IMG/VR virus record: IMGVR_UViG_3300045988_114077
Coordinates: 1 to 41,513 of that record
DNA from: a virus
DNA length: 41,513 nt
Reading direction: 5' to 3' (one strand)
Numbering within the stretch: position 1 is the first letter of the stretch; the number at the start of each line of letters is the position of its first letter. The position numbers and the translations under genes are program-made. The notes beneath the pieces were generated by a model, which did no database searches, was not told the DNA's origin, and saw nothing but the letters and a program-made list of their open reading frames with translations. This document shows positions 8,182-33,338 of this stretch, in pieces.

Positions 8182-8577
8182 ATGGAAGAAACCATAAACC
8201 ACCGTATCGAACAGGTATGGGAGGAATCCAAACTCACAAAATCGGCATTTTCGGAAAAGATTGGCATATCTCAGCCGTATCTTAGTCGGCTTTGCAAGGA
8301 GGCTTTAACCCCCAGTGACCGCACGATCTCCGACATCTGCCGGGTCTTCCGGGTCAACGAGGATTGGCTGCGGAACGGAACCGGGGCAAAGTACCGGAAG
8401 AAGCCCAGAGCGGAAGAACTGGGCGAAATCTTTGCCGATCTGGAAGTTGACGACACGGTGAAGGCCCGGTTTATCAGGACGCTGGCGGACTTCCCGGAGG
8501 AGTATTTCGCCCAGGCACTGGAAATGGCCCGGAAGTTTTTGGAGCGGTACGCCCAGGAAGAGGGGCCGGGAGCATAA
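8182..8577 (+). CDS. XRE-family HTH repressor (CI-like)
   Basis: LTKSAFSEKIGISQPYLSRLCKE is an HTH. The position is divergent from a strong promoter. Confidence 0.8.
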   Translation: MEETINHRIEQVWEESKLTKSAFSEKIGISQPYLSRLCKEALTPSDRTISDICRVFRVNEDWLRNGTGAKYRKKPRAEELGEIFADLEVDDTVKARFIRTLADFPEEYFAQALEMARKFLERYAQEEGPGA

Positions 8578-12954: not shown

Positions 12955-13416
12955 ATGGCAACTGAAAATGACGGGAAAGTTCAAAAAAGGTACAGAATTG
13001 CGGGGTTTGATATGGATCTGGATACCCTCAATGGGCACATATCCAGGTATAAGCAGATGGCGGCAGATGGGGAGGTCGAGCTACCGTCCTGGTCCGACTG
13101 GGTAAGCCGGGCGGGGTTGACAGAAGCGATCTGCGCTGAGGTAATGGAGCGGGCGGCGGAGGGGCCAAGTAGTACATACTACGACCGGGGCAAGGCGCTG
13201 GGGGCCTTGTGGCAGTGGTGCCGCGGGCAGTATATAAGTAACCCCAACTGGGGGGCGACGGCGGCCAGAGTCAACAAAGCGATGATGCTATATAGGATGC
13301 AGCCCGATGGACAGGAGCGGGCCAGACCTGCCACGGTGCAGGCCAAACAGGGGCCGTCGGAACTAATTATATCGTTCGGGCGGGGCGATCAGCGGGCCCA
13401 AAACGCCGGGGGTTGA
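12955..13416 (+). CDS. Putative terminase small subunit
   Basis: First gene of the rightward block, about 1 kb upstream of terL. Size 153 aa. Segment ELPSWSDWVSRAGLTEAICAEVMER is HTH-like. The call is based mainly on position. Confidence 0.45.
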   Translation: MATENDGKVQKRYRIAGFDMDLDTLNGHISRYKQMAADGEVELPSWSDWVSRAGLTEAICAEVMERAAEGPSSTYYDRGKALGALWQWCRGQYISNPNWGATAARVNKAMMLYRMQPDGQERARPATVQAKQGPSELIISFGRGDQRAQNAGG

Positions 13417-13575: not shown

Positions 13576-13913
13576 CTATTAAGGACGGCGGGCCGGGGCG
13601 CTGATGGTCCCCCAGATGGGGCATCATTTGATGACCCCCACCCCCGGGGGTAGCGGAAAAACGGGCGGGCCGCGCGCAGAAGGGTAGGCTTATATACGAC
13701 ACACTCTCCCCCACCCCCTCCAATGTCCGAACGGCCCGGGATGGTTTGACCGGGTACATCGTGCCCCCTGCCGTTGGAAACATGCCGGTGCTGATTGAAG
13801 CGGGCTTCTGTGCTGTGATTTCAAAAAATCAATGCGAGTAAATATGTAAAGCTATAATATTATATTAAAGCCTTATAGAGAATACCTAGCTATAATATTA
13901 TTATAATATATAT

Positions 13914-13933
13914 ATACTATACAGGTATAGTAT
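13914..13933. repeat. Palindrome atactatac-ag-gtatagtat within an AT-rich block (about 13830-13935)
   Basis: Read directly. TATAAT-like words are repeated around it. Confidence 0.6.
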
Positions 13934-13941
13934 TATAGTCC

Positions 13942-13977: not shown

Positions 13978-14006
13978 TTGACAAGGTGCAATAAGTTGGA
14001 AATGAT
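13978..14006 (+). promoter_or_regulatory. Candidate promoter TTGACA-17-AATGAT upstream of the tRNA-like gene
   Basis: Perfect -35 and a 4/6 -10. Confidence 0.45.
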
Positions 14007-14093
14007 ATGGCCGAGGGGATACCGGAAAAAGGGCTGGGCTGTTTCGTTTGGGCCTTTCCGAAAAAATAATAAACCTCTCTCAATATCGGGTAT

Positions 14094-14169
14094 GTGTGTG
14101 TAGCACAACTGGCGGTGCGCTGAATGCTATGTTCAGAGGGTGAGAGTTCGACCCTCTCCACACACGCCA
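14094..14169 (+). tRNA. tRNA-like gene, 76 nt with encoded CCA, anticodon position CUA (amber-suppressor-like), non-canonical anticodon loop
   Basis: Hand fold: acceptor gtgtgtg/cacacac (7 bp), D arm gcac-aactggcg-gtgc, anticodon arm ctgaa-tgCTAtg-ttcag, variable loop agggt, T arm gagag-ttcgacc-ctctc, discriminator g, CCA. Position 33 is G and position 37 is U, both atypical. Confidence 0.7.
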
Positions 14170-14186
14170 ACACGGAGGCGAAAGCG

Positions 14187-14342
14187 GTGGTAAATACGGA
14201 AGACGGATATATTCTCTGCCCGGTGTGCGGGAAGAAGACGAAGACGAAGGTGCTGCCGGAAACGGAGCTGAATCGGTTCCCTCTATACTGCCCGTGGTGC
14301 AAACGGCAGACCGTCATCGACCATCGCAAAAACGATACATAA
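14187..14342 (+). CDS. Cysteine-rich KTR-family small protein (51 aa)
   Basis: GTG start with GGAGG 8 nt upstream. ILCPVCGKKTKTKVLPETELNRFPLYCPWCKRQTVI matches the Cys-rich KTR pattern of Firmicutes, from memory. Confidence 0.75.
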   Translation: MVNTEDGYILCPVCGKKTKTKVLPETELNRFPLYCPWCKRQTVIDHRKNDT

Positions 14343-14356
14343 ACGCCGGAGCCTTG

Positions 14357-14408
14357 GAGCCAGAGCGGTGCACGAATTGACGTGCGCTGTTCTGGCTCTT
14401 TTTGTTTT
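14357..14408 (+). terminator. Intrinsic terminator T1 (compound hairpin plus T-run)
   Basis: Outer stem gagccaga/tctggctc, inner stem gcacg/cgtgc, then tttttgtttt. Homologous to T2 at 16810. Confidence 0.7.
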
Positions 14409-14425
14409 CCGGGGAGGTTTGGAAC

Positions 14426-15808
14426 TTGGCAGTGCAGGATAAGAACAAGGTCACGGCGGATTTTGGCAGGCCGAACAGTGATGCGCAGTGGAGATTTTTT
14501 GAATCCCGTGTGCGTTATACCTGTTACGGCGGCGCTCGTGGCGGCGGCAAGAGCTGGGCAACCAGAGTAAAAGCCGGGTTGGGTGCGCTGCAATATCCCG
14601 GAATCCGCATCCTGATTCTTCGCCGGGAATACGGCGATATGGAAGGAACGCTGATTGCTCCTCTGCTGGCAATGCTGCCGACAGAAATCTACACCTATAA
14701 CAAGTCCGAGCACATGATTACCTTCATGAACGGCAGCAAGATCAAGTTCGGCAATATGCCGGGCTACAGCGCCGCCGTGCAAGGTAAGTATCAGGGTCAG
14801 GAATATGAATGGCTCTTCATTGATGAGGCCACACAGTTCCTTGAAACGGAGTTCCGAGGGCTTGACGCAATCGTCCGTGGCGCGAATAAGATTCCGAAAC
14901 GTATCTACCTGACCTGCAACCCCGGTGGCCCCGGACACAACTGGGTGAAGCGGCTCTTCGTTGACCGGAAGTTCGAGAAGGGCGAGAACCCTAACGATTA
15001 TGTGTTTATCCCCGCCACGGTGGACGACAACAAAGACCTGATGGACGCTGACCCAAAATATGTCCGGACGCTGGAGCAGCTGCCTGATGACATCAGGAGG
15101 GCGCACCGATATGGTGACTGGAACGTGTTTTCCGGCATCTTCTTCACGGAGTTTCAGGACGGCGTTCATACCTGTACCCCATTTGCCATTCCGAGGCACT
15201 GGAAGCGATACAGAGCAATGGACTACGGTCTCGATATGTTTTTCTGTATCTGGGTGGCCGTGGATGAGAACGGACGATGCTATGTGTACCGGGAGTTCGC
15301 CAAAGAGGGTATAGTCGTTTCGGATGCCGCGAGGAAGCAGCTGGAATTGACCAGACCGGAAGAGATGATCATGGGGACCATTGCGCCGCCGGATATGTGG
15401 GCGCGGAACCGTGAAAGCGGGCGTACTCAGGCGGCAGCCTTTGCCGACAATGGTGTAGGGCTTATCAAAGCGAGCAACAACAGAATCCAGGGCTGGTCCG
15501 CCCTGAAAGAGTTCTTTAAGGTCCAGAACGACGGTAAGCCGGGGCTTATCATTTTCGATACCTGTAAGCAGCTCACGGACTGCATCAAGGGCTTGCAGCA
15601 CAGCAAGAAGATGCCGAACGACGTAAGCCTGGAGCCCCACGGCATCACCCACGGGCCTGATGCCTTGCGGTACTTTGCCAGCACCTATGTTCTTTCTGCC
15701 GAGAAGGAACAGGAGGTCATTTTGGAGGAGGACGAGCGCGACCAGCATCAGGACTACCGGTCCTATATGTGCGGCGGGCGGATATCCCGCAGCTATATCG
15801 GCGGATAA
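14426..15808 (+). CDS. terL: Terminase large subunit
   Basis: Walker A YGGARGGGKS, then LFIDEATQF. The C-terminal half is nuclease-like. The start is probably TTG at 14426 (GGAGG 8 nt upstream); the tracked ORF opens at 14402. Confidence 0.9.
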   Translation: MAVQDKNKVTADFGRPNSDAQWRFFESRVRYTCYGGARGGGKSWATRVKAGLGALQYPGIRILILRREYGDMEGTLIAPLLAMLPTEIYTYNKSEHMITFMNGSKIKFGNMPGYSAAVQGKYQGQEYEWLFIDEATQFLETEFRGLDAIVRGANKIPKRIYLTCNPGGPGHNWVKRLFVDRKFEKGENPNDYVFIPATVDDNKDLMDADPKYVRTLEQLPDDIRRAHRYGDWNVFSGIFFTEFQDGVHTCTPFAIPRHWKRYRAMDYGLDMFFCIWVAVDENGRCYVYREFAKEGIVVSDAARKQLELTRPEEMIMGTIAPPDMWARNRESGRTQAAAFADNGVGLIKASNNRIQGWSALKEFFKVQNDGKPGLIIFDTCKQLTDCIKGLQHSKKMPNDVSLEPHGITHGPDALRYFASTYVLSAEKEQEVILEEDERDQHQDYRSYMCGGRISRSYIGG

Positions 15809-16781: not shown

Positions 16782-16809
16782 TCAAATATCTGCCGGAGCC
16801 GGAGCCTTG

Positions 16810-16856
16810 GAGCCAGAGCGTAGCACGAAGAATCGTGCCGTTCTGGCTCTTTTTTC
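16810..16856 (+). terminator. Intrinsic terminator T2, homolog of T1
   Basis: Same stems (gagccaga/tctggctc and gcacg/cgtgc) and a T6 run. It shares the 5' flank gccggagccttggagccagagcg with T1. Confidence 0.7.
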
Positions 16857-16886
16857 GTTCCGGCAGGAAGAAAAGGAGTAATTTCT

Positions 16887-26225: not shown

Positions 26226-26246
26226 GTTACAAACCCGTTACAAACC
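26226..26246 (+). repeat. Two more direct GTTACAAACC repeats (P' arm)
   Basis: Copies at 26226-26235 and 26237-26246. The second overlaps the integrase stop. Confidence 0.6.
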
Positions 26247-27341
26247 GTGAGAGAATATGTCTTTCTGGTTGATAGCGTTCAGAATGTCGGATGGGTCCAG
26301 GTGGGTGTAAAATTTATCGGTAGTAGACAGGTCGGAATGACCTACCATGCGGCGGAGAAGCTGAGGGTTGACGCCTGCTTTTGTGGCCTTGGTGATGAAG
26401 GTATGGCGGCAGTCATAGGGCGTGTAGGCCGGAAGGTTCAGCTCCTGCATGAGTTCCTTCCATTCCCGCTTGACGTAGTTTGCATAGGTGTGGTTCCCGC
26501 TGTAGCCGTCTATGAGTTTCGGTTTCCCGGATGCCGCGGAAAGGATTTCATGATACGCGGAAAGCCCAAGCTGGGAAACGGCAATGACACGGTTTTTTCC
26601 TGCTTTTGTCTTGCTGCCCCCAACAAAATAGGTAGTGGTGCAATCTGCCGTAGCCGCCTGAAACAGTTCGTTTGGGCGGCAGCCGGTGGCAAGCAGGATC
26701 AGGGCGATTTTTGCGGCTGGGTTTTCGGACTTCTTCATTGCGTCTATCGCCTCATCAGGGAAGACAAGTCCGTCACTCTTCTGCGCTGCGGCAATGGTAC
26801 AGTAGCGTGCGCGGTTGACCTGCTGGATTTCCTCCAATACAGCCCAGTCGGAAAGCTGCCCGAAAAGCTGCAACACCTTTTCACAGGTGGACTTGGACTT
26901 CCCTTCCTGCTCCAGGCGGATGATAACAGCTTGGAATTCAGAGCGCCGGATGGTACGAAATTTCCGGTCGTGCAGTTCTTTGCAGTTGGAAAAGGCGGTT
27001 TTGTATGAGCCTTGGCCGTGGACGCTTATCGTCCGGTCGTGCTCTGGCTTCCATGCTTCGTAAATCTGTTTGAAGGTCCAGTTATACTTTTCTGTGATTG
27101 TGGCGTCTGTGAGGCGCTCAAGGGCTTTGACGGCATCTGTGCGGGTTTCATATGTGCCAATCAGTTGGCCGCCCTTGCGAACCACCCAGGGCTTGCGGCG
27201 TGAACCGGAGAGTTTTGAGATGTTGCCGGTTCCATTGGGACGTTTGCGGGTCTTTCGGGGCTGGGAAAGCTGCTTCTTTCCGCAATAAGGGCAGAAGACA
27301 GCATTCTCCGGCAGCTCCTTCTTGCATTTCTGACAGAGCAT
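26238..27341 (-). CDS. int: Tyrosine integrase with an N-terminal zinc ribbon
   Basis: MLCQKCKKELPENAVFCPYCGKK N-terminus. C-term CRHTFITKA...MVGHSDLSTTDKFYTHL gives the HxxR and Y catalytic motifs. Confidence 0.9.
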   Translation of the reverse strand: MLCQKCKKELPENAVFCPYCGKKQLSQPRKTRKRPNGTGNISKLSGSRRKPWVVRKGGQLIGTYETRTDAVKALERLTDATITEKYNWTFKQIYEAWKPEHDRTISVHGQGSYKTAFSNCKELHDRKFRTIRRSEFQAVIIRLEQEGKSKSTCEKVLQLFGQLSDWAVLEEIQQVNRARYCTIAAAQKSDGLVFPDEAIDAMKKSENPAAKIALILLATGCRPNELFQAATADCTTTYFVGGSKTKAGKNRVIAVSQLGLSAYHEILSAASGKPKLIDGYSGNHTYANYVKREWKELMQELNLPAYTPYDCRHTFITKATKAGVNPQLLRRMVGHSDLSTTDKFYTHLDPSDILNAINQKDIFSHGL

Positions 27342-27397
27342 ATTGGGGTTCCTTTCTGTGTGTGTGGCTGCACGGTAATACAGCGGCTTGCAACATG

Positions 27398-27426
27398 AGT
27401 GTAACACGGTCAGAAACAGATGTAAA
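27398..27426 (-). promoter_or_regulatory. Candidate integrase promoter TTTACA-17-TACACT
   Basis: Read from the reverse complement. Confidence 0.4.
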
Positions 27427-27440
27427 TATGGAAAAGCGTA

Positions 27441-27474
27441 CAAAAATCCCGGTCTGCGGTGGGCAGGCCGGGAC
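27441..27474 (-). terminator. Intrinsic terminator after the 1951-aa gene
   Basis: Minus strand: tcccgg N15 ccggga, then tttttg. Confidence 0.55.
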
Positions 27475-27482
27475 TTTTCGGA

Positions 27483-30400
27483 TTAATAGTTCTCTTCGAT
27501 GAACTCCGCAATAGCTGCCTTGGTTTTATTTCCGCTGCCAGCATAGATGTGGTACAGCTGCTCGGCCATTTTCTTGTCAAAGCCCAGGTCGATAATACCC
27601 TGAACCTTATCATCCTTCAGGGACTTCCCGTCTCCGTCTGTGTCCGAATACAGGTAGGCATAATAGGTGTCGGCGTACTCCTTGGCAGAGAGACCCAGTT
27701 CCTTGCGGATGTAATCGTACTTGACCTCTGTCTTGTCGGGTTCCTTATCTTTCGGATCATAGTCCGGCATATAGAGCTTCATTGCGGTATCCAACTGAGC
27801 ATCGGAAAGCCCCTTGGTGGAGGCGACGCTTTGGAGCTGCACGGGCCGCTTGCCACGGTTCTTTTCCGGGATGGACTGGACAGCCTTAATAATGGACAGC
27901 GTTGTATCGGAAGCAAAGCCGCTGTTCCGGGCCTCAAGATAAATCCTGGTGTTGCCGCTGGACTTTTCAAGAACGGATTTCTTGGTGATACCAGGCATTT
28001 TGGAAATGGTGTCGTAGACGGCGTTCAGGGTGTCCGTAGCTTTCTTTGTGTCGTTCCCCAACTCCCATGCCTTTTCCAGGTCCCCTACTGCGGATGTGGC
28101 GTTGGATTTCAGAACATCACGGACGGTGTTAAAGACGATGGAGGTCTTTCCGCCGTCTTTCGGCACGTCCTTATAGTCTGTGACTGCCGCCCGGGCGAAC
28201 TGGGCGCCGTATTCCTTGGCCTTTTGCAACGCCTCCGCCTTCATCTCATCGGAGAGGTTATCAAAGCTGGCGTTTTTCAGAAGACCATCGTAGTACTCCT
28301 TGACGCGTTTGCCGTATTCCTTCTGGTAAGTTTCCCGCTGCTCTGCCGTGAGCTGCACATCCTCGCCGGAAGCGTCCTTGACCTTCAGCGGGGCCTGACG
28401 CTCGGGGTAGATGTTCTTGACGTCCGGGTTCTGGCTCAGTTCGTCAAGAGACTGGGCGGTTTTGTCCAGCTGGAGGCGGTGGGTATTGGTGGGGTCTAAG
28501 AAGTTGGAGACGAAACCGCCTCGCTTCTGCTCCTGCCCGAAGCCGTTGACCTTCTTCGGAAGCGTTTCGGAAGCGCCTGGAATCGCGTTCAGAATGCTGT
28601 TCTTGGCGTACTCGGCAGAATCCTTTCCACGGGTATCCCGATAATAGCCGTCCATAGTCTGAGCGGTTTGGCGGACAAACTGGGGGACAAAGGAGCTTGC
28701 CACATTGCCGCCGTACTCGGCGAGGGCGTTTTTCAAATCGCCTGTATCGCCGGATTTGACGGCATCGTAACCGTTGGAAAGCATGTCCTGGAGCTGCGTC
28801 AGACCGTCCATCATGGGGCTGTCCATAAAGGAGGAAACCGCAGAAGGGAAAGCGCTCTTTGCGTAGGCTTTTCCGACCCCCGCAAGGTTGGAGGACGGGT
28901 TCGCCATGAATTCCTTCACAGCATCGTCCTGGGCCAGCTCTACAGCAAGATACATCTGAGTATTGAATGGCTCCAGAAAATCCAGGCTTGTAACAACGTC
29001 CCCAGTTTGCCATTTCTCACTTCCACCTTCGGACGCACGGCCCAGAGCGGACCAGTTGATCTGAGCGCCGCTGAGACCTTGAGACTGGTCAAGGGCCTTT
29101 TTGTTTTTGTCGGAATCGTCATGAACCTGGATAATCCCGTTCGCCGCTGCGGTGGTCATGATGCCGATGAATGCAAGGCCGGTCATTCCACGCCCGAAAT
29201 CGCTGGCAGCCTGACGCTGGCGGGCTACGCTGATTTCCTTCCCGTGTCGTGCGTCGTGGATAATACGGGCGATTTCAATCGCGCCCTTGCCAACACCGGC
29301 AGTATAGTCAATACCGGTCTGCGCTACGTTCATGGGAACGCTGGCGAACGGCATTACCACATCTCCGACAGCCTTTGTAAAAGGCTCCGCGTCTGTGCCC
29401 TTGCCGATGTTCTTCATCTGCTGGGCAACGCGGGAGAGGTTGGAACCGTGGGTTTTGCCGTTTTCTTCCCAGGTGGCATCCTTGAAAGTGCGGCGGTTTG
29501 CTGTAAATTCCGCAAGCTCCGAAATGTCCGCGTCGCTGAGGTTGGAGTTTTTCAGACGGTTTAGACTGTCCGTAACGGCAGCGTTGGTGCCGCCCTCGAA
29601 TACTTTATCGGAGACTTCCAGGGCATAGCTCATATACTTCTGGTAGCCGTAGAGAACACGCATTGCAACATTGCCGTTGGAGCGGAAGGTTTTGCCGATG
29701 TATTTCCCGCTTCCGTTGGCACCGGTCGCGGAATCGAAAGCGGCGTTGGCATCCGTTTCAATGGGGACATTCAGCTCCACACACAGAGAAGCAAAGTCCA
29801 TAGAATCCTTGGCTGCGCTGAGATACTTACCGGGGAGCTTCAAGTCGTTGCCGACTGTGCGCTTCCCGGTGGCCTTGGCCATCAGGGAATCCACGAAGCG
29901 GCCTCCGATACTGTCACTGAAGGAATCCAAAAGGCCGGTGGCACTGTTGCCAGCAAGGTTCCGTTCAAATGTTTTCAGCGAGGAAAGCATTCCCTGCTTC
30001 CGCAAACCCTCCGCGATTTCCATTTTTCCGCGGGCACGGAAATCATCCGGCATGGCGGCGATCTGGGTGTTGGCGATTTTCTTCAGGGTATCGAAGTCCA
30101 GTTTGTTCAGAATGCGCTGGGCGTTTTTCGTAAGACGGCTGGACGTGCCGAACCATGCGGTGGTTTTCCGGGACTGGGCAATCTGGCGGATCACGTCACG
30201 CATAGCCTTGGTATCGCCCTCGGGAACGCTGTCAACGGCCATGGCGATACGGGTATACTCCTGCGTGACGTTGTTCTGCCACTGCTCGAAGGTGGGGCCG
30301 TTCTTGGTTTTCTTATAGGTGGTATCGCCCTGATCCATGGCAAGGAAGCGGGCGGTGGCGGATTCAGAGGCGGACATGGGGTCGGATGCGTCTTTCATTG

Positions 30401-33338
30401 TCCCAGAAATAGCGAATGCCTGAGCAACCTGACCGGCGTTTGTGCCTACCTTGGCAAGCTGCTTGTTCATGGCGGTCGTACCCTCCACGTCACCGGACTT
30501 GAACAGTTCCTTTGCCACAAGACGGCCCGTGGCAACGTCCTCAGCGGTCCAGGAATCGCCCTTGTTCATCAGGTAATCATATTCCGCGCGGACACGTTCC
30601 GGGCTGCTGGTGCGCTGCTGGGCGGTCCCCAGGGTATCCGTATTGTGCTTTACCTGATAATCCCCCGCTTCCCGGTCCTGCCGCAGGGTCTCCCGATATC
30701 CGGCGCGGATATCCGCGTCTTTATTTTGAAGGCCGGAATTGGTAACAGAGCGGGACTTTTCCACATCCCCGCTGGGTTCGGACTGCATACCCAAGGTATC
30801 AGGCTGGGCGGCTGCCGCCGGGTCTCCGGTCAGGGCAGCGGTCTGGTTCTGGATGGACTGGCGGGCGGCTTCCTGCTGGGTGCGGCGCTGGGTGGTGGAT
30901 TCCTCGACAAGGGCGGAGACAGTGTCTATTGGGGGGATGGCGGGCGGTTGCGGGATTTCGGTCTGCACTGCGCTATCTTCGGTGGGGATATCCACCAATG
31001 GGGGCTCGATCGCGCTCTGGCGGGGTGTATCCGGTTCAGCAGCTTGCGCCAGGGAGGAATCCGGCGCATCTGCTTGCTGGGGGAAAAGCGGGGCCGTGGC
31101 GATTGGCTGCGGAGCAGGTTCAGCCGATTGGACGGGATGTGGATTCCCCGAAAGCTCCGCGTCATAATCTGCATCGGATATGGACATCAGGCGTCTGAGT
31201 TCAACGGCTGCATCCTGAGCGCGCCGGAAAGCATCCTGGGAGACTGCCGCATTTGCTCTTTCCGTGTACGCATCATAGTTACCGTCCTGAATTGTGTCGA
31301 ACAGTTCGAGCATTCTTGCTTCCCTTGCCGTGTTGAGATACCCCTTCATGTAGATTTCCTTTTTCTCTTCCCGGCTAAGAGGATTATCTATAAGATAATT
31401 GCCGTCGCTTTCTCCGCGCTTTCTAGCTTTCTTCCGCTCTTTTTTTCGCTTGTCAAGGAAATTCTTCCATTCTTTGGGATCTTTGAAAGAGGAAACATCT
31501 ACGATGTCGTCAGTGGCACCGGACTGCTTGCGCTTCGCCACGGATTCCTCAACCGTTCGGGAGACTGTATCCAGAGGAGTTTCCGCCTGTGCCGGTTCCG
31601 GCTGAATATTACGGGGCTGCGCTTGCTCAATTGGCTGCTCCTGCGGGAGTTGTTGCGGATTTTGCAACAGCTGGTCGGGGGGAGGGGCCTGCCGTGCGGT
31701 CAGCTGCTCCGGGGTGGTTTCGGTGGGGGCGGTGTCGGGGGCTGCTTCCGGGGCGTTTTCCCCATCGAGAAGGGCCTGAGCGCGGCGGTTGCGGGCGTTG
31801 CCGATGGCGGTAGAGACACCTGCGGAGACACCGCCGGAGATACCCGCAACAAGAAGCTGCTGACCGGCCTGATCGATAAGGTCCTTATTGGCAAGGTGCT
31901 TTGCGTCGGCATAAGACATATTAGGGTCTTGCGCCATGTAGTTCTGGATATTCTGCTCATACTCGGAATTATCCTGAAGGATGGCCATATCCAGCAGCTG
32001 GGAGCCGATGAAGGACGCGCCCTCGGTGGTCGCTTCGATTCCGGCCTGTTTGAGGGCTGCTTTCAGGGCAGAGGTAGAACCTTCCTTGGCAAGGCCGAAC
32101 AGGTTGTCCAGAGGAATCTTATCCATGACATAGTCCAGAGCGGCGGATGAGGAAGCCAAAAGGGTTGCCTGACCGGAAGTCGCGCCACGCTCGGATGCCT
32201 CGGACAGGGTGCGGGTATACTGATTCATGGCGGAGGTGGCGGCGGCAACGGTTGGGCCGAGGGTAATAGCCTTTGCTGCGGATTCCAGAGCGCCGGTTCC
32301 CGCCTGATAAAGCAGAGACGCGCCCTTTCGTAGAATGTTTGGGTCGTCACCCTCAATCTGCTGCTGGATGTTCTGCTTGGAGGTATCGGCATAGACGTTC
32401 ATGGCATCGCCGTAAGTATAGGGGGACAGAGAACTATAGCGCCCCGTCCTGTTCTTGGCCTCATCCAGACGTCCGGCAAGCGCCACGACACCGGAAACAG
32501 GGCTGGTCACCAGATTCCCAACGGAGGTCAGGATGGACGCAAGAACGCCGTTGGAATTCTGCTTCGCAGCATCCTGAACGTTCTCCCGCTGCTCCAGCTG
32601 ATAGGAGCGGGTGCTTGTCTCGGCCAGCTGGGCCAGACGGTCAGCGCCGTACTTGCCCACAAGAGCCTGATACTCCCGGGGAATGGGTTCTTCCTCGCCG
32701 GGTTCCGGCCCCATTTCAGAGGAGGCGTCCTGACGCTGGATGCGAAGGTAGTTGCCGTAGGAACGTAGCTTTTTCCGCTCGTCCTCGGTCATGGCGTTCA
32801 GGTCGGCCATGTCCTTTTCGTAGATGGACTGGTCGTTGGATTTACTGCTGGAAGTTTCCTTCTGGGCCTGCTCCTTCCGGGCGGCGGCTTGCAGACGCTC
32901 AAGGGTTTCATCCTTTGGAGGCGTGTCGGACACGGCCTGCCCGGACTGGGGGGAATCGCCCCCGCCCTGTTCCCGCTGCATGGCAGCCTGACGCTGTGGG
33001 GATGCGATATAGGTGTCAAGGGTCTTCTGGGCGCTATCGGTCCCCTGCTGGTCTCTTTGGGCGGCATCTTCCGGCAACACCGTTTTGGGCGTCTCTGTGG
33101 AAGTGGGGGAGGATTTTTTCAGAGCCGGGGCGTTGCTGTTGACCTGCTGGGAGATGGCAGAAAGGAAAGGATTCTGAATTCCAGGGTCTGCGGCTGCGGT
33201 TGGGTTGCTTTGCCTATATCGCTGCTGTGCTTTTGCTGCCAATACCTTGATGTCCGCATCTGTGGCAGGCGCAGTTGTGGGATTCTCACCTGCGCGTTTT
33301 TGCAGTTCACGTACAAATTCGTCCTTAAAATTGCTCAT
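27483..33338 (-). CDS. Giant virion-associated protein (1951 aa); putative internal/ejection polyvalent protein
   Basis: Single uninterrupted ORF. Pro/Gln-rich linkers and internal repeats (PLDTVSRTVEESVAKRKQ and PIDTVSALVEESTTQRRTQ). No enzymatic motif recognised. Confidence 0.6.
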   Translation of the reverse strand: MSNFKDEFVRELQKRAGENPTTAPATDADIKVLAAKAQQRYRQSNPTAAADPGIQNPFLSAISQQVNSNAPALKKSSPTSTETPKTVLPEDAAQRDQQGTDSAQKTLDTYIASPQRQAAMQREQGGGDSPQSGQAVSDTPPKDETLERLQAAARKEQAQKETSSSKSNDQSIYEKDMADLNAMTEDERKKLRSYGNYLRIQRQDASSEMGPEPGEEEPIPREYQALVGKYGADRLAQLAETSTRSYQLEQRENVQDAAKQNSNGVLASILTSVGNLVTSPVSGVVALAGRLDEAKNRTGRYSSLSPYTYGDAMNVYADTSKQNIQQQIEGDDPNILRKGASLLYQAGTGALESAAKAITLGPTVAAATSAMNQYTRTLSEASERGATSGQATLLASSSAALDYVMDKIPLDNLFGLAKEGSTSALKAALKQAGIEATTEGASFIGSQLLDMAILQDNSEYEQNIQNYMAQDPNMSYADAKHLANKDLIDQAGQQLLVAGISGGVSAGVSTAIGNARNRRAQALLDGENAPEAAPDTAPTETTPEQLTARQAPPPDQLLQNPQQLPQEQPIEQAQPRNIQPEPAQAETPLDTVSRTVEESVAKRKQSGATDDIVDVSSFKDPKEWKNFLDKRKKERKKARKRGESDGNYLIDNPLSREEKKEIYMKGYLNTAREARMLELFDTIQDGNYDAYTERANAAVSQDAFRRAQDAAVELRRLMSISDADYDAELSGNPHPVQSAEPAPQPIATAPLFPQQADAPDSSLAQAAEPDTPRQSAIEPPLVDIPTEDSAVQTEIPQPPAIPPIDTVSALVEESTTQRRTQQEAARQSIQNQTAALTGDPAAAAQPDTLGMQSEPSGDVEKSRSVTNSGLQNKDADIRAGYRETLRQDREAGDYQVKHNTDTLGTAQQRTSSPERVRAEYDYLMNKGDSWTAEDVATGRLVAKELFKSGDVEGTTAMNKQLAKVGTNAGQVAQAFAISGTMKDASDPMSASESATARFLAMDQGDTTYKKTKNGPTFEQWQNNVTQEYTRIAMAVDSVPEGDTKAMRDVIRQIAQSRKTTAWFGTSSRLTKNAQRILNKLDFDTLKKIANTQIAAMPDDFRARGKMEIAEGLRKQGMLSSLKTFERNLAGNSATGLLDSFSDSIGGRFVDSLMAKATGKRTVGNDLKLPGKYLSAAKDSMDFASLCVELNVPIETDANAAFDSATGANGSGKYIGKTFRSNGNVAMRVLYGYQKYMSYALEVSDKVFEGGTNAAVTDSLNRLKNSNLSDADISELAEFTANRRTFKDATWEENGKTHGSNLSRVAQQMKNIGKGTDAEPFTKAVGDVVMPFASVPMNVAQTGIDYTAGVGKGAIEIARIIHDARHGKEISVARQRQAASDFGRGMTGLAFIGIMTTAAANGIIQVHDDSDKNKKALDQSQGLSGAQINWSALGRASEGGSEKWQTGDVVTSLDFLEPFNTQMYLAVELAQDDAVKEFMANPSSNLAGVGKAYAKSAFPSAVSSFMDSPMMDGLTQLQDMLSNGYDAVKSGDTGDLKNALAEYGGNVASSFVPQFVRQTAQTMDGYYRDTRGKDSAEYAKNSILNAIPGASETLPKKVNGFGQEQKRGGFVSNFLDPTNTHRLQLDKTAQSLDELSQNPDVKNIYPERQAPLKVKDASGEDVQLTAEQRETYQKEYGKRVKEYYDGLLKNASFDNLSDEMKAEALQKAKEYGAQFARAAVTDYKDVPKDGGKTSIVFNTVRDVLKSNATSAVGDLEKAWELGNDTKKATDTLNAVYDTISKMPGITKKSVLEKSSGNTRIYLEARNSGFASDTTLSIIKAVQSIPEKNRGKRPVQLQSVASTKGLSDAQLDTAMKLYMPDYDPKDKEPDKTEVKYDYIRKELGLSAKEYADTYYAYLYSDTDGDGKSLKDDKVQGIIDLGFDKKMAEQLYHIYAGSGNKTKAAIAEFIEENY

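What the first reader, a model, noticed from the sequence alone, without database searches (positions are those of the whole stretch)
13978..14408. Compact cassette of promoter, tRNA-like RNA, Cys-rich KTR peptide gene and terminator, inserted just ahead of terL
A candidate promoter (TTGACA-17-AATGAT) precedes the tRNA-like gene. The tRNA CCA end (14169) is only 4 nt from the GGAGG SD of a 51-aa Cys-rich KTR-type peptide gene (GTG at 14187). A strong compound terminator (T1) then follows, directly before terL.

The KTR family is a small two-CxxC Firmicutes protein of unknown function. Its physical coupling to a tRNA-like RNA suggests a functional RNA-protein pair or a processing-dependent translation signal. 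Transcription must pass T1 to express terL from upstream promoters.
Basis: partly seen in the sequence, partly recalled or inferred. Interest (0 to 1): 0.62.

Follow-up and report, generated by a model that had tools for sequence, protein, structure and literature searches.

The report
Phage late-operon leader with tRNA mimic
The stretch is the conserved start of a gut phage's packaging and head operon (promoter, a slot for tRNA genes, a tiny zinc-ribbon gene, a strong terminator, then terL). In this phage the slot holds a tRNA-shaped RNA whose anticodon arm is closed, so it is a tRNA mimic and not an amber suppressor.

Summary
The window is a complete 41.5-kb temperate phage genome that uses the standard code, and its relatives lie in Oscillospiraceae genomes.

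**Conserved module.** KTR, a GAGCC-repeat terminator and terL are adjacent in every terL relative examined (18 IMG/VR loci, 11 genome contigs, about 20 assembly contigs). KTR is therefore not an insertion.

**Variable tRNA slot.** The position 4-12 nt ahead of the KTR Shine-Dalgarno holds none to three ordinary tRNAs (Ile, Ser, Asn, Thr, Met, Lys and others). KTR genes outside this terL clade had no upstream tRNA (0 of 12). A specific tRNA-KTR pair is not supported.

**The occupant here is not a decoder.**
- It has G33 and a pyrimidine at position 37.
- "CUA" is CUU in sister phages.
- Positions 32-38 and 33-37 can pair, giving a 7-bp stem and a triloop.
- Reading TAG as sense gives no coding gain.
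- The other 73 nt are identical in 19 copies, although terL differs by up to 13%.
- Positions 36-38 occur as only two haplotypes (AUG or UCA), scattered over the flank trees.

**Function.** The roles of the mimic and of KTR are inferred, not shown.

**Earlier scan notes.** This scan has noted non-decoding tRNA-like RNAs in phage late leaders on other DNA.

The parts
13978..14006 (+). Sigma-70-like promoter P1, TTGACA-17-AATGAT
   Evidence: 10 of 12 consensus positions. The hexamers are kept in L015, L031, L056, L058 and L060 while the spacers differ.
14007..14093 (+). Conserved leader: a G-rich block, GGAAAAAGGGC, then GAAAAAATAATAAACC. It includes a possible second -10 (TAATAA, 14067-14072) just before the tRNA slot.
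   Evidence: The sequence motifs are conserved across the whole clade. RNAalifold finds no covarying structure, so this looks like a DNA or protein-binding element or a promoter rather than a folded RNA.
14094..14169 (+). tRNA-shaped RNA gene: 7/4/5/5 cloverleaf, G73, encoded CCA, anticodon loop UGCUAUG
   Evidence: It is identical over 73 nt in 19 copies from different assembly records.
14120..14136 (+). Anticodon arm CTGAATG-CTA-TGTTCAG, which can close to 7 pairs plus a triloop. The dimorphic positions 36-38 are 14129-14131 (ATG here, TCA in sister phages).
14174..14178 (+). Shine-Dalgarno GGAGG of KTR, 4 nt after the CCA and 8 nt (14179-14186) before the GTG
   Evidence: The position is conserved in relatives.
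14187..14342 (+). KTR gene: a 51-aa zinc ribbon with two CxxC motifs and a KTKTK motif
   Evidence: PF14205, E 1.8e-17. AlphaFold2 gives a four-strand ribbon with pLDDT 86.9. The 72-aa ORF from ATG 14124, as called in public collections, runs through the tRNA and is an artefact.
14348..14361 (+). Two GGAGCC repeats. The second forms the start of the terminator's 5' arm.
   Evidence: The repeats are read in different frames or lie outside the ORF in relatives, so the conservation is at nucleotide level.
14356..14409 (+). Intrinsic terminator T1: a 19-bp hairpin plus a U-tract
   Evidence: -38.4 kcal/mol, z -6.8. A hairpin plus T-run lies downstream of KTR in all clade loci printed.
14411..15808 (+). 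terL with its Shine-Dalgarno GGGGAGG (14411-14417) and TTG start at 14426
   Evidence: Terminase_6N, Terminase_3. The TTG-GCA start is shared with L002.
16795..16856 (+). T2, a second copy of the GGAGCC-repeat terminator, between the scaffold and major capsid genes
   Evidence: -39.3 kcal/mol. Also present in L059 and L025.

Best explanation
This is the 5' end of the late (packaging and head) operon of a clade of temperate phages whose relatives lie in Oscillospiraceae genomes.

**Layout.** A sigma-70-like promoter and a conserved leader drive a short transcription unit. It holds a variable tRNA slot and then a small zinc-ribbon gene (KTR), and it ends at a very strong intrinsic terminator (T1). 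RNA polymerase must read through T1 to reach terL. It must also read through its twin T2 to reach the capsid gene.

**The occupant here.** In this phage lineage the slot holds a tRNA-shaped RNA, not a working tRNA. Its body comes from the clade's common tRNA scaffold, but its anticodon arm cannot present an anticodon. It has G33 and a pyrimidine at position 37, and positions 32-38 and 33-37 can pair to give a 7-bp stem with a triloop.

**Inferred steps.**
- It is co-transcribed with KTR.
- It is cut out by RNase P and 3' processing, like the real tRNAs in sister phages. That leaves the KTR message with a very short leader.
- It persists as a stable, non-decoding and probably uncharged tRNA mimic.

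**Function.** My best guess (about 35%) is that the mimic engages a host tRNA-binding factor. The most likely target is a tRNA-directed defence nuclease, which could not cut the closed loop. A pure processing or stability role is nearly as likely (about 30%).

**KTR.** It is a fixed first gene of the operon and does not depend on which tRNA precedes it. Its role is not established. It may be a nucleic-acid-binding regulator of read-through or of packaging.
For: **Shown**
- The genome is complete, carries an integrase and uses the standard code.
- KTR lies directly upstream of terL in 18 of 18 IMG/VR relatives and in 11 genome contigs.
- 15 of 18 and 8 of 11 of these carry 1-3 tRNAs just upstream, of changing identity.
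- A tRNA-less relative (L027) joins the same leader motif AATAATAAACC directly to the KTR Shine-Dalgarno.
- The tRNA fold scores 47.5 bits. Its D arm, variable loop and T arm are homologous to the Met and Thr tRNAs of close relatives.
- The loop is UGCUAUG here and UGCUUCA in sisters, so the 'anticodon' is CUA or CUU while G33 is kept.
- In the sister allele the arm folds as a perfect 7-bp stem plus triloop (-5.3 kcal/mol). In the window allele the predicted minimum is 6 pairs with a 5-nt loop (-3.5 kcal/mol). The cloverleaf with the closed arm is more stable than the open one by 3.7 and 1.1 kcal/mol respectively.
- The body shows 0 changes in 73 nt, against 7-19 changes in about 133 adjacent flank positions and 95-179 in 1383 terL positions. 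Fisher p ranges from 0.044 to 5e-5, except against KTR in the nearest relative L059 (p 0.31).
- Only two 3-nt haplotypes occur, 13 and 6 copies, with no intermediates. On the flank trees they need 5 of a possible 6 changes and 3 of a possible 3.
- T1 and T2 are strong hairpins with U-tracts, and each abuts the next gene's Shine-Dalgarno.

**Context from the literature**
- Phage tRNAs are proposed to counter host anticodon nucleases (PMC10264068).
- A virally encoded tRNA neutralises the PARIS defence system (PMC11464382).
Against:
- I know of no published non-cleavable tRNA decoy, so that part is conjecture.
- Six or more relatives lack any tRNA in the slot. Neither a tRNA nor its processing is therefore needed for KTR or terL expression.
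- The phage population recombines heavily. Among sites with a minor-allele count of at least 5, the mean four-gamete incompatibility is about 0.65 and some single sites reach 0.89-0.92. The scattered loop alleles therefore do not on their own prove balancing selection.
- The promoter, leader and T1 are also more conserved than terL, so part of the conservation could reflect a recently spread module.
- In the window allele the two extra closing pairs are G.U wobbles, worth only about 1 kcal/mol.
Confidence: 0.6

Rival explanations
1. The tRNA-like is kept only as RNA punctuation. RNase P and 3' processing at the cloverleaf remove the structured leader and set the 5' end of the KTR-terL message. 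Alternatively, the cloverleaf stays attached as a 5' block to exonucleases. Under this reading the loop is free to vary.
For: - The last tRNA ends 4-12 nt before the KTR Shine-Dalgarno in most relatives.
- The acceptor stem, T arm and encoded CCA are all perfect.
- Earlier scan notes describe tRNA-like processing modules next to phage terminase genes (these are leads only).
Against: - Relatives with no tRNA express the same KTR-terL layout.
- The D arm, anticodon stem and variable loop are also invariant, which is more than RNase P recognition should need.
- A neutral loop should show intermediates, not two fixed 3-nt haplotypes.
Confidence: 0.3
2. It is a working amber-suppressor tRNA (the window allele), or a nuclease-resistant tRNA-Lys(CUU) (the sister allele), that still decodes.
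For: - ARAGORN reads CTA here and CTT in sisters.
- A more distant relative has tRNA-Lys(UUU) in the slot.
- Phage tRNAs with altered anticodon loops are proposed to escape anticodon nucleases (PMC10264068).
Against: - G33 and U37 or C37 break the two near-universal loop rules, and the residues are complementary across the loop.
- The anticodon differs between otherwise identical genes.
- Coding density is 0.937 under both table 11 and TAG-as-sense, and no ORF with a real-gene codon signature is interrupted by TAG.
- From general knowledge, G73 rather than A73 is a poor fit for LysRS recognition.
Confidence: 0.08
3. It is a decaying tRNA pseudogene with no function, conserved only because the module spread recently.
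For: - Other occupants of the slot are also degenerate: the L025 loop is CGGAGGG with no encoded CCA, and the L029/L033 Ile tRNA has C33.
- The neighbouring leader and T1 are also highly conserved.
Against: - There are no changes in 73 nt across 19 copies, although adjacent spacer and leader positions differ by up to 14% and terL by 13%.
- The anticodon stem differs from the homologous Met and Thr tRNAs at every pair yet remains fully paired.
Confidence: 0.15
4. The tRNA-like and KTR form a dedicated RNA-protein pair.
For: They are adjacent and probably co-transcribed. KTR has a zinc-ribbon fold, and its weak resemblances are to RNA-binding ribbons such as Nop10, L33 and eL43 (none is significant).
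Against: - KTR is equally conserved behind at least eight different tRNAs or none.
- None of the 12 KTR genes outside the clade has an upstream tRNA.
Confidence: 0.05

Closest known systems
Phage-encoded tRNA genes and tRNA islands at the early/late boundary, including phage tRNAs with altered anticodon loops proposed to escape anticodon nucleases (PMC10264068; PMC11464382; PMC11555353)
   Same: It sits in a slot that holds real tRNAs in sister phages. The cloverleaf body, encoded CCA and upstream promoter are the same, and the anticodon loop departs from the norm.
   Different: The loop changes here remove U33 and the purine at 37 and let the loop close, so decoding is very unlikely. The published cases are working tRNAs.
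tRNA-like processing signals: plant mitochondrial t-elements and the mascRNA/MALAT1 arrangement (named from general knowledge and from an earlier scan note that cites PMC1920247)
   Same: A tRNA-shaped, non-decoding module abuts an mRNA, so tRNA-processing enzymes could define the RNA ends.
   Different: Here the module is a full, perfectly conserved cloverleaf with encoded CCA in a bacteriophage. Processing has not been shown, and tRNA-less relatives manage without it.
Amber-suppressor tRNAs of stop-codon-recoded gut phages (from general knowledge)
   Same: ARAGORN reads a CUA anticodon in a gut phage, located near the late genes.
   Different: There are no in-frame TAG codons and no coding gain under TAG-as-sense. 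The loop is not canonical, and the sister allele reads CUU.
Lambda-type late control: a constitutive promoter, a short terminated transcript (PR'-tR', 6S RNA), and N or Q antitermination (from general knowledge)
   Same: A promoter is followed by a short unit ending at a strong terminator placed directly before the late genes. A small basic protein is encoded upstream of the terminator, as N is upstream of tL1.
   Different: No antiterminator has been identified. KTR has no similarity to N or Q, and read-through has not been measured.
Pfam PF14205 Cys_rich_KTR
   Same: A clear member: two CxxC motifs, a K-T-[KR] motif and about 50 aa.
   Different: The family has no known function. The fixed position as first gene of a phage late operon, followed by a GAGCC-repeat terminator, did not turn up in my literature search (two incidental mentions only).

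Membership tests
Canonical elongator tRNA (Rfam RF00005) | Cloverleaf with 7/4/5/5 stems and conserved U8, G18-G19, T54-T55-C56 and A58 | tested here: met
   47.5 bits against a gathering score of 29. The alignment with canonical phage tRNAs shows these columns invariant.
Canonical elongator tRNA (Rfam RF00005) | Open 7-nt anticodon loop with U33 and a purine at 37 | tested here: not met
   The loop is UGCUAUG (G33, U37); sisters have UGCUUCA (G33, C37). The 32-38 and 33-37 pairs close the loop. Of the 25 distinct slot tRNAs listed, 22 are canonical at both positions.
Canonical elongator tRNA (Rfam RF00005) | Anticodon conserved among orthologous copies | tested here: not met
   CUA in 13 copies and CUU in 6 copies of an otherwise identical gene.
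Canonical elongator tRNA (Rfam RF00005) | Aminoacylation and use on the ribosome | not testable with these tools
   Needs wet-lab assays.
Amber suppressor tRNA / TAG-recoded phage | In-frame TAG codons in phage genes, or a coding-density gain when TAG is read as sense | tested here: not met
   Density is 0.937 under both table 11 and TAG read-through. No TAG-spanning ORF has the genome's real-gene codon signature.
tRNA-Pyl | A 6-bp anticodon stem with an open CUCUAAA-type loop, a 3-nt variable loop, a short D loop, and one base between the acceptor and D stems (features recalled from general knowledge) | tested here: not met
   The sequence shows two bases (UA) after the acceptor stem, an 8-nt D loop with GG and a 5-nt variable loop. 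The 'Pyl' label is only ARAGORN's name for a CTA anticodon.
Pfam PF14205 Cys_rich_KTR | Score above the curated cut-off, with two CxxC motifs and the KTR motif | tested here: met
   63.3 bits against 25.5. C10, C13, C34 and C37 are invariant in 20 relatives.
Rho-independent terminator | A G+C-rich hairpin immediately followed by a U-tract | tested here: met
   19 bp, -38.4 kcal/mol, U-tract at 14400-14409. Actual termination efficiency was not testable.
Phage attP carrying a tRNA fragment | Lies next to the integrase and matches the 3' part of a host tRNA | tested here: not met
   The integrase is at 26238-27443, 12 kb away. The element is a full-length gene inside the late leader. A match to a host tRNA was not tested.
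tRNA-like processing signal (t-element type) | Cleavage by RNase P or RNase Z that defines the neighbouring mRNA ends | not testable with these tools
   Only the geometry is seen: 4 nt from the CCA to the Shine-Dalgarno.

The most novel reading that the evidence does not exclude
The cassette may be a two-part late switch and counter-defence unit.

1. The invariant tRNA body with a closed, dimorphic anticodon arm could be an uncleavable pseudo-substrate that traps a host tRNA-directed defence nuclease. The two loop haplotypes would then be kept by balancing selection against host variants.
2. KTR could be a lambda-N-like small basic zinc ribbon, made from the short promoter-to-T1 transcript. 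It would bind the GGAGCC repeats that overlap the 5' arm of T1 and T2 and let RNA polymerase read into terL and the capsid gene.
Probability: 0.15. Interest if true: 0.8.

Novelty: new variant of a known kind. Interest (0 to 1): 0.55.

Why it matters
- **Annotation.** ARAGORN labels this gene tRNA-Pyl (the window allele) or tRNA-Lys (the sister allele), which invites a false claim of stop-codon recoding. Public gene calls also extend the KTR ORF by 21 codons through the tRNA.
- **A natural experiment.** The slot holds a working tRNA, no tRNA or a non-decoding mimic in otherwise similar phages. This bears on the open question of why phages carry tRNAs at all.
- **A testable case of non-translational tRNA mimicry.** The mimic's body is invariant while its closed loop has two alleles, and the phage recurs in many public metagenome assemblies.
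- **A handle on an uncharacterised family.** KTR's fixed position ahead of a repeat-bearing terminator gives a concrete, testable context for a protein family of unknown function.

Tried and rejected
- **Amber suppression or recoding.** Rejected: no density gain and no TAG-split genes.
- **tRNA-Pyl.** Rejected on architecture.
- **attP.** Rejected: the integrase is 12 kb away.
- **The 72-aa ORF starting at ATG 14124.** Rejected: it reads through the tRNA, which shows none of the substitutions seen in the neighbouring coding sequence, and the real Shine-Dalgarno and GTG start are conserved.
- **Folded RNA in the leader.** RNAalifold gives 3 pairs and no covariation.
- **A donor template in the genome for the alternative loop allele.** None found.
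- **Inversion or quasi-palindrome correction.** By inspection, the sister loop is not the reverse complement of this one. Template switching could explain TG to CA but not the change at position 36.
- **KTR function from structure or sequence.** There is no significant PDB sequence hit (best E 0.015, zinc-knuckle only) and no Foldseek hit at E 0.001 or better. PHROGs and NCBIfam give nothing usable.
- **The terS-like 153-aa ORF.** No family hit.
- **Searches that found nothing.** blastn of the region against 50,697 phage records gave no match. Pattern scans for the anticodon arm and T arm in viral and metagenome contigs gave 0 hits. Close relatives were found only through the protein collection.

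Full report
**What the window is.** It is a complete viral record of 41,513 bp. The two ends share 31 bp, which I read as the overlap of a circular assembly.
- Coding density is 0.937 under table 11 and does not rise when TAG is read as sense.
- No ORF that spans a TAG has the codon-position signature of the real genes, which is GC2 about 0.4, GC3 about 0.7 and purine-rich first positions.
- A tyrosine integrase lies at 26238-27443 and an XRE-type HTH protein at 8182-8577, so the phage looks temperate.
- The late genes run rightward: terL, a scaffold-like protein, the major head protein, the portal and an endolysin.
- Relatives sit in genomes and MAGs of Oscillospiraceae such as Faecousia, Limivicinus, Ruminococcus, Subdoligranulum, Gemmiger and Flavonifractor.

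**The observation.**
- TTGACA-17-AATGAT lies at 13978-14006.
- A tRNA fold spans 14094-14169. ARAGORN labels it 'Pyl', anticodon CTA, and Rfam tRNA gives 47.5 bits, E 8e-9.
- After the CCA come 4 nt, GGAGG and GTG at 14187. The 51-aa product matches PF14205 at 63.3 bits against a cut-off of 25.5.
- T1 is a 19-bp hairpin plus U-tract at -38.4 kcal/mol, z -6.8.
- The terL Shine-Dalgarno starts two bases after the U-tract, and the likely start is TTG 14426.

**Is it a cassette inserted ahead of terL?** No.
- I fetched 18 IMG/VR loci with a terL 66-87% identical to this one. All 18 have a KTR gene directly upstream of terL.
- The same holds for 11 of the 23 KTR loci found in genome contigs, and for about 20 assembly contigs of close relatives.
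- KTR and T1 are therefore fixed parts of the clade's late operon.

**The tRNA slot.** What varies is the tRNA.
- 15 of 18 viral loci and 8 of the 11 genome-contig loci with this terL carry one to three tRNAs just upstream of KTR.
- These include Ile(GAU), Ser(GCU), Asn(GUU), Thr(UGU), Met(CAU), Lys(UUU), Gly and Phe.
- In most of them the last tRNA ends 4-12 nt before the KTR Shine-Dalgarno.
- Relatives without a tRNA join the conserved leader motif (AAAAAATAATAAACC in L027) straight to the Shine-Dalgarno.
- Of the 12 KTR genes in other contexts (chromosomal, or next to XRE regulators), none has an upstream tRNA. Two phage loci (L044, L047) have KTR, a hairpin, a tRNA and then the scaffold and capsid genes.
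The neighbourhood is real but positional and confined to phage late leaders. It is not a specific pair.

**What the tRNA-like is.**
- Its D arm, variable loop and T arm are homologous to the Met and Thr tRNAs of the nearest relatives (L031, L015). The anticodon stem differs from theirs at every pair yet stays fully paired.
- The loop is UGCUAUG, with G33 and U37.
- The public protein collection holds 72-aa 'KTR' calls that begin inside the tRNA, reading MLC... or MLH.... These led me to 18 further DNA copies of the gene, in separate assembly records from about 18 different samples.
- All 19 copies, the window included, are identical over 73 of 76 nt.
- Positions 36-38 are either AUG (13 copies, including the window) or UCA (6 copies), with no intermediates.
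- The 'anticodon' is thus CUA or CUU, and ARAGORN duly calls the sister allele tRNA-Lys.
- The UCA allele makes a perfect palindrome, CUGAAUG-CUU-CAUUCAG: 7 pairs and a triloop at -5.3 kcal/mol.
- In the window allele the same two extra pairs are U.G and G.U. The predicted minimum is 6 pairs with a 5-nt loop at -3.5 kcal/mol. Closing the loop stabilises the cloverleaf by 3.7 and 1.1 kcal/mol respectively.
- A loop that lacks U33 and a purine at 37, whose 'anticodon' is not conserved, and that can zip shut is not a decoding loop. With the standard code, this rules out the amber-suppressor reading.

**Is it just decaying?**
- The body shows 0 changes in 73 nt. In the same genome pairs the adjacent leader plus spacer differ at 7-19 of about 133 positions, KTR at 3-16 of 156, and terL at 95-179 of 1383.
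- One-sided Fisher p values run from 0.044 to 5e-5, except against KTR in the closest relative L059, where p is 0.31.
- That argues for purifying selection on the whole L-shape.
- Caveat: the promoter, leader and T1 are also unusually conserved.

**The loop dimorphism.**
- On maximum-likelihood trees of the 1.7 kb downstream and the 1.1 kb upstream, the two haplotypes need 5 of a possible 6 changes and 3 of a possible 3. This is no better than shuffled labels.
- Nearly identical flanks carry different alleles, for example L056 and L067, or L059 and L078.
- Three adjacent substitutions cannot recur by point mutation. This is therefore an old polymorphism reshuffled by recombination, or a switch of unknown mechanism.
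- The population recombines heavily. Among 54 sites with a minor-allele count of at least 5, the loop ties for the most incompatible (0.92 against a mean of 0.65). Single sites at 0.89-0.92 also exist.
- I therefore treat balancing selection as suggested, not shown.

**KTR.**
- AlphaFold2 gives a confident four-strand zinc ribbon, pLDDT 86.9.
- Foldseek finds only generic ribbons such as eL43, RNA polymerase I A12 and LysW, none at E 0.001 or better.
- The PDB sequence search, PHROGs and NCBIfam give nothing significant.
- The literature search found two incidental mentions.
- KTR is equally conserved behind any tRNA or none.

**The terminator.**
- Downstream of KTR, in the phage clade and in several other contexts (L001, L043, L044, L047, L048, L052), lie two to four (A/G)GAGCC repeats.
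- They run into a hairpin whose arms are GAGCCAG and CTGGCTC, followed by a T-run.
- In different loci the repeats are read in different frames as the KTR tail, or lie outside the ORF, so it is the nucleotides that are conserved.
- More distant KTR genes lack the motif (L041, L049-51, L055).
- The window has a second copy, T2 (16795-16856, -39.3 kcal/mol), between the scaffold and capsid genes. L059 and L025 have one there too.
- Two such terminators inside what must be a single late unit, each abutting the next Shine-Dalgarno, suggest regulated read-through.
- That KTR is the read-through factor is only a hypothesis.

**Promoter and leader.**
- P1 is kept in the nearest sub-clade despite spacer divergence.
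- The leader carries clade-wide sequence motifs: a G-rich block, TTTTGAAA-like, and GAAAAAATAATAAA.
- RNAalifold finds no covarying structure there.
- In many relatives TTGAAA, 16-18 nt and TAATAA form a second promoter-like site just before the slot. In the window its -35 element is poor.
- Which start site is used cannot be decided without RNA data.

**How it most likely works.**
- Shown: the anatomy, its conservation, and the non-decoding nature of the RNA.
- Inferred: co-transcription from P1 (or P2) to T1; excision by tRNA-processing enzymes; a stable tRNA mimic; and read-through of T1 and T2 for late expression.
- I put a decoy or other host-factor-binding role at about 35%, RNA punctuation or stability at about 30%, a functionless relic at about 15%, still decoding at about 8%, and a dedicated partner of KTR at about 5%.

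**Relation to earlier scan notes.**
- Notes on this window had already flagged the odd loop, the T1/T2 homology and the ORF-free gap. I re-tested the first two here.
- On other genomes the scan has reported non-decoding tRNA-shaped RNAs between late regulators and terminase genes, including one in a Faecalibacterium-type prophage. I did not test those.
- They suggest this is a recurring theme rather than a one-off.

Noticed in passing
window 13830-13940, and the same position in L001, L015, L017, L025, L027, L029, L036, L060: An extremely AT-rich block of short repeats (TATATAAGACTTAG-like words) is conserved in position across the clade. It lies between the terS-like gene and the late promoter, and in many relatives a motif GTATAGATATATGCGACACA precedes it. 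It may be a pac or cos region, or a regulatory region.
   Followed up: partly
window 16795-16856; L059 4031-4078; L025 4912-4952: T2 is a second GGAGCC-repeat terminator, homologous to T1, directly before the major capsid gene. Two strong terminators inside the late unit suggest antitermination-type control.
   Followed up: partly
L025 2227-2300; L029 and L033 Ile tRNA: Other occupants of the slot are also aberrant. L025 has a loop CGGAGGG (G33, which creates a GGAGG) and no encoded CCA. The L029/L033 tRNA-Ile(GAU) has C33.
   Followed up: no
L002/L031, L015, L014, L060 and the large tRNA arrays in L006-L012: Phage tRNAs of different identity (Met, Thr, Lys, Gln, Asn) share the same D arm, TAGCACAAC[AT]GGCGGTGCG. 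L036 Ile, L037 Met and the L025 tRNA share one anticodon stem with different loops. This hints at identity switching on a common scaffold.
   Followed up: no
window 14124-14342 (public protein clusters P0001-P0004, P0010-P0022): Public gene calls give KTR as 72-75 aa, starting at an ATG inside the tRNA-like anticodon arm. The exact window version (P0010) is listed in 67 blocks of the assembly collection, so the phage recurs in many assemblies.
   Followed up: yes
window 12955-13416: The 153-aa 'terS-like' ORF is conserved upstream in close relatives but matches no Pfam, PHROG or NCBIfam family, so its identity as a small terminase is unproven.
   Followed up: partly
window 27483-33338 (minus strand): A 1951-aa ORF with no Pfam hit, followed by 493-aa and 620-aa ORFs that also have none. 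This is a large uncharacterised block next to the integrase.
   Followed up: no
window 14345-14350 with 14405-14410, and 16793-16798 with 16857-16862: CCGGAG upstream of each terminator can pair with UUCCGG just after the U-tract. This gives an outer helix that encloses the terminator (seen in the minimum-free-energy folds). It is not conserved in L015.
   Followed up: partly
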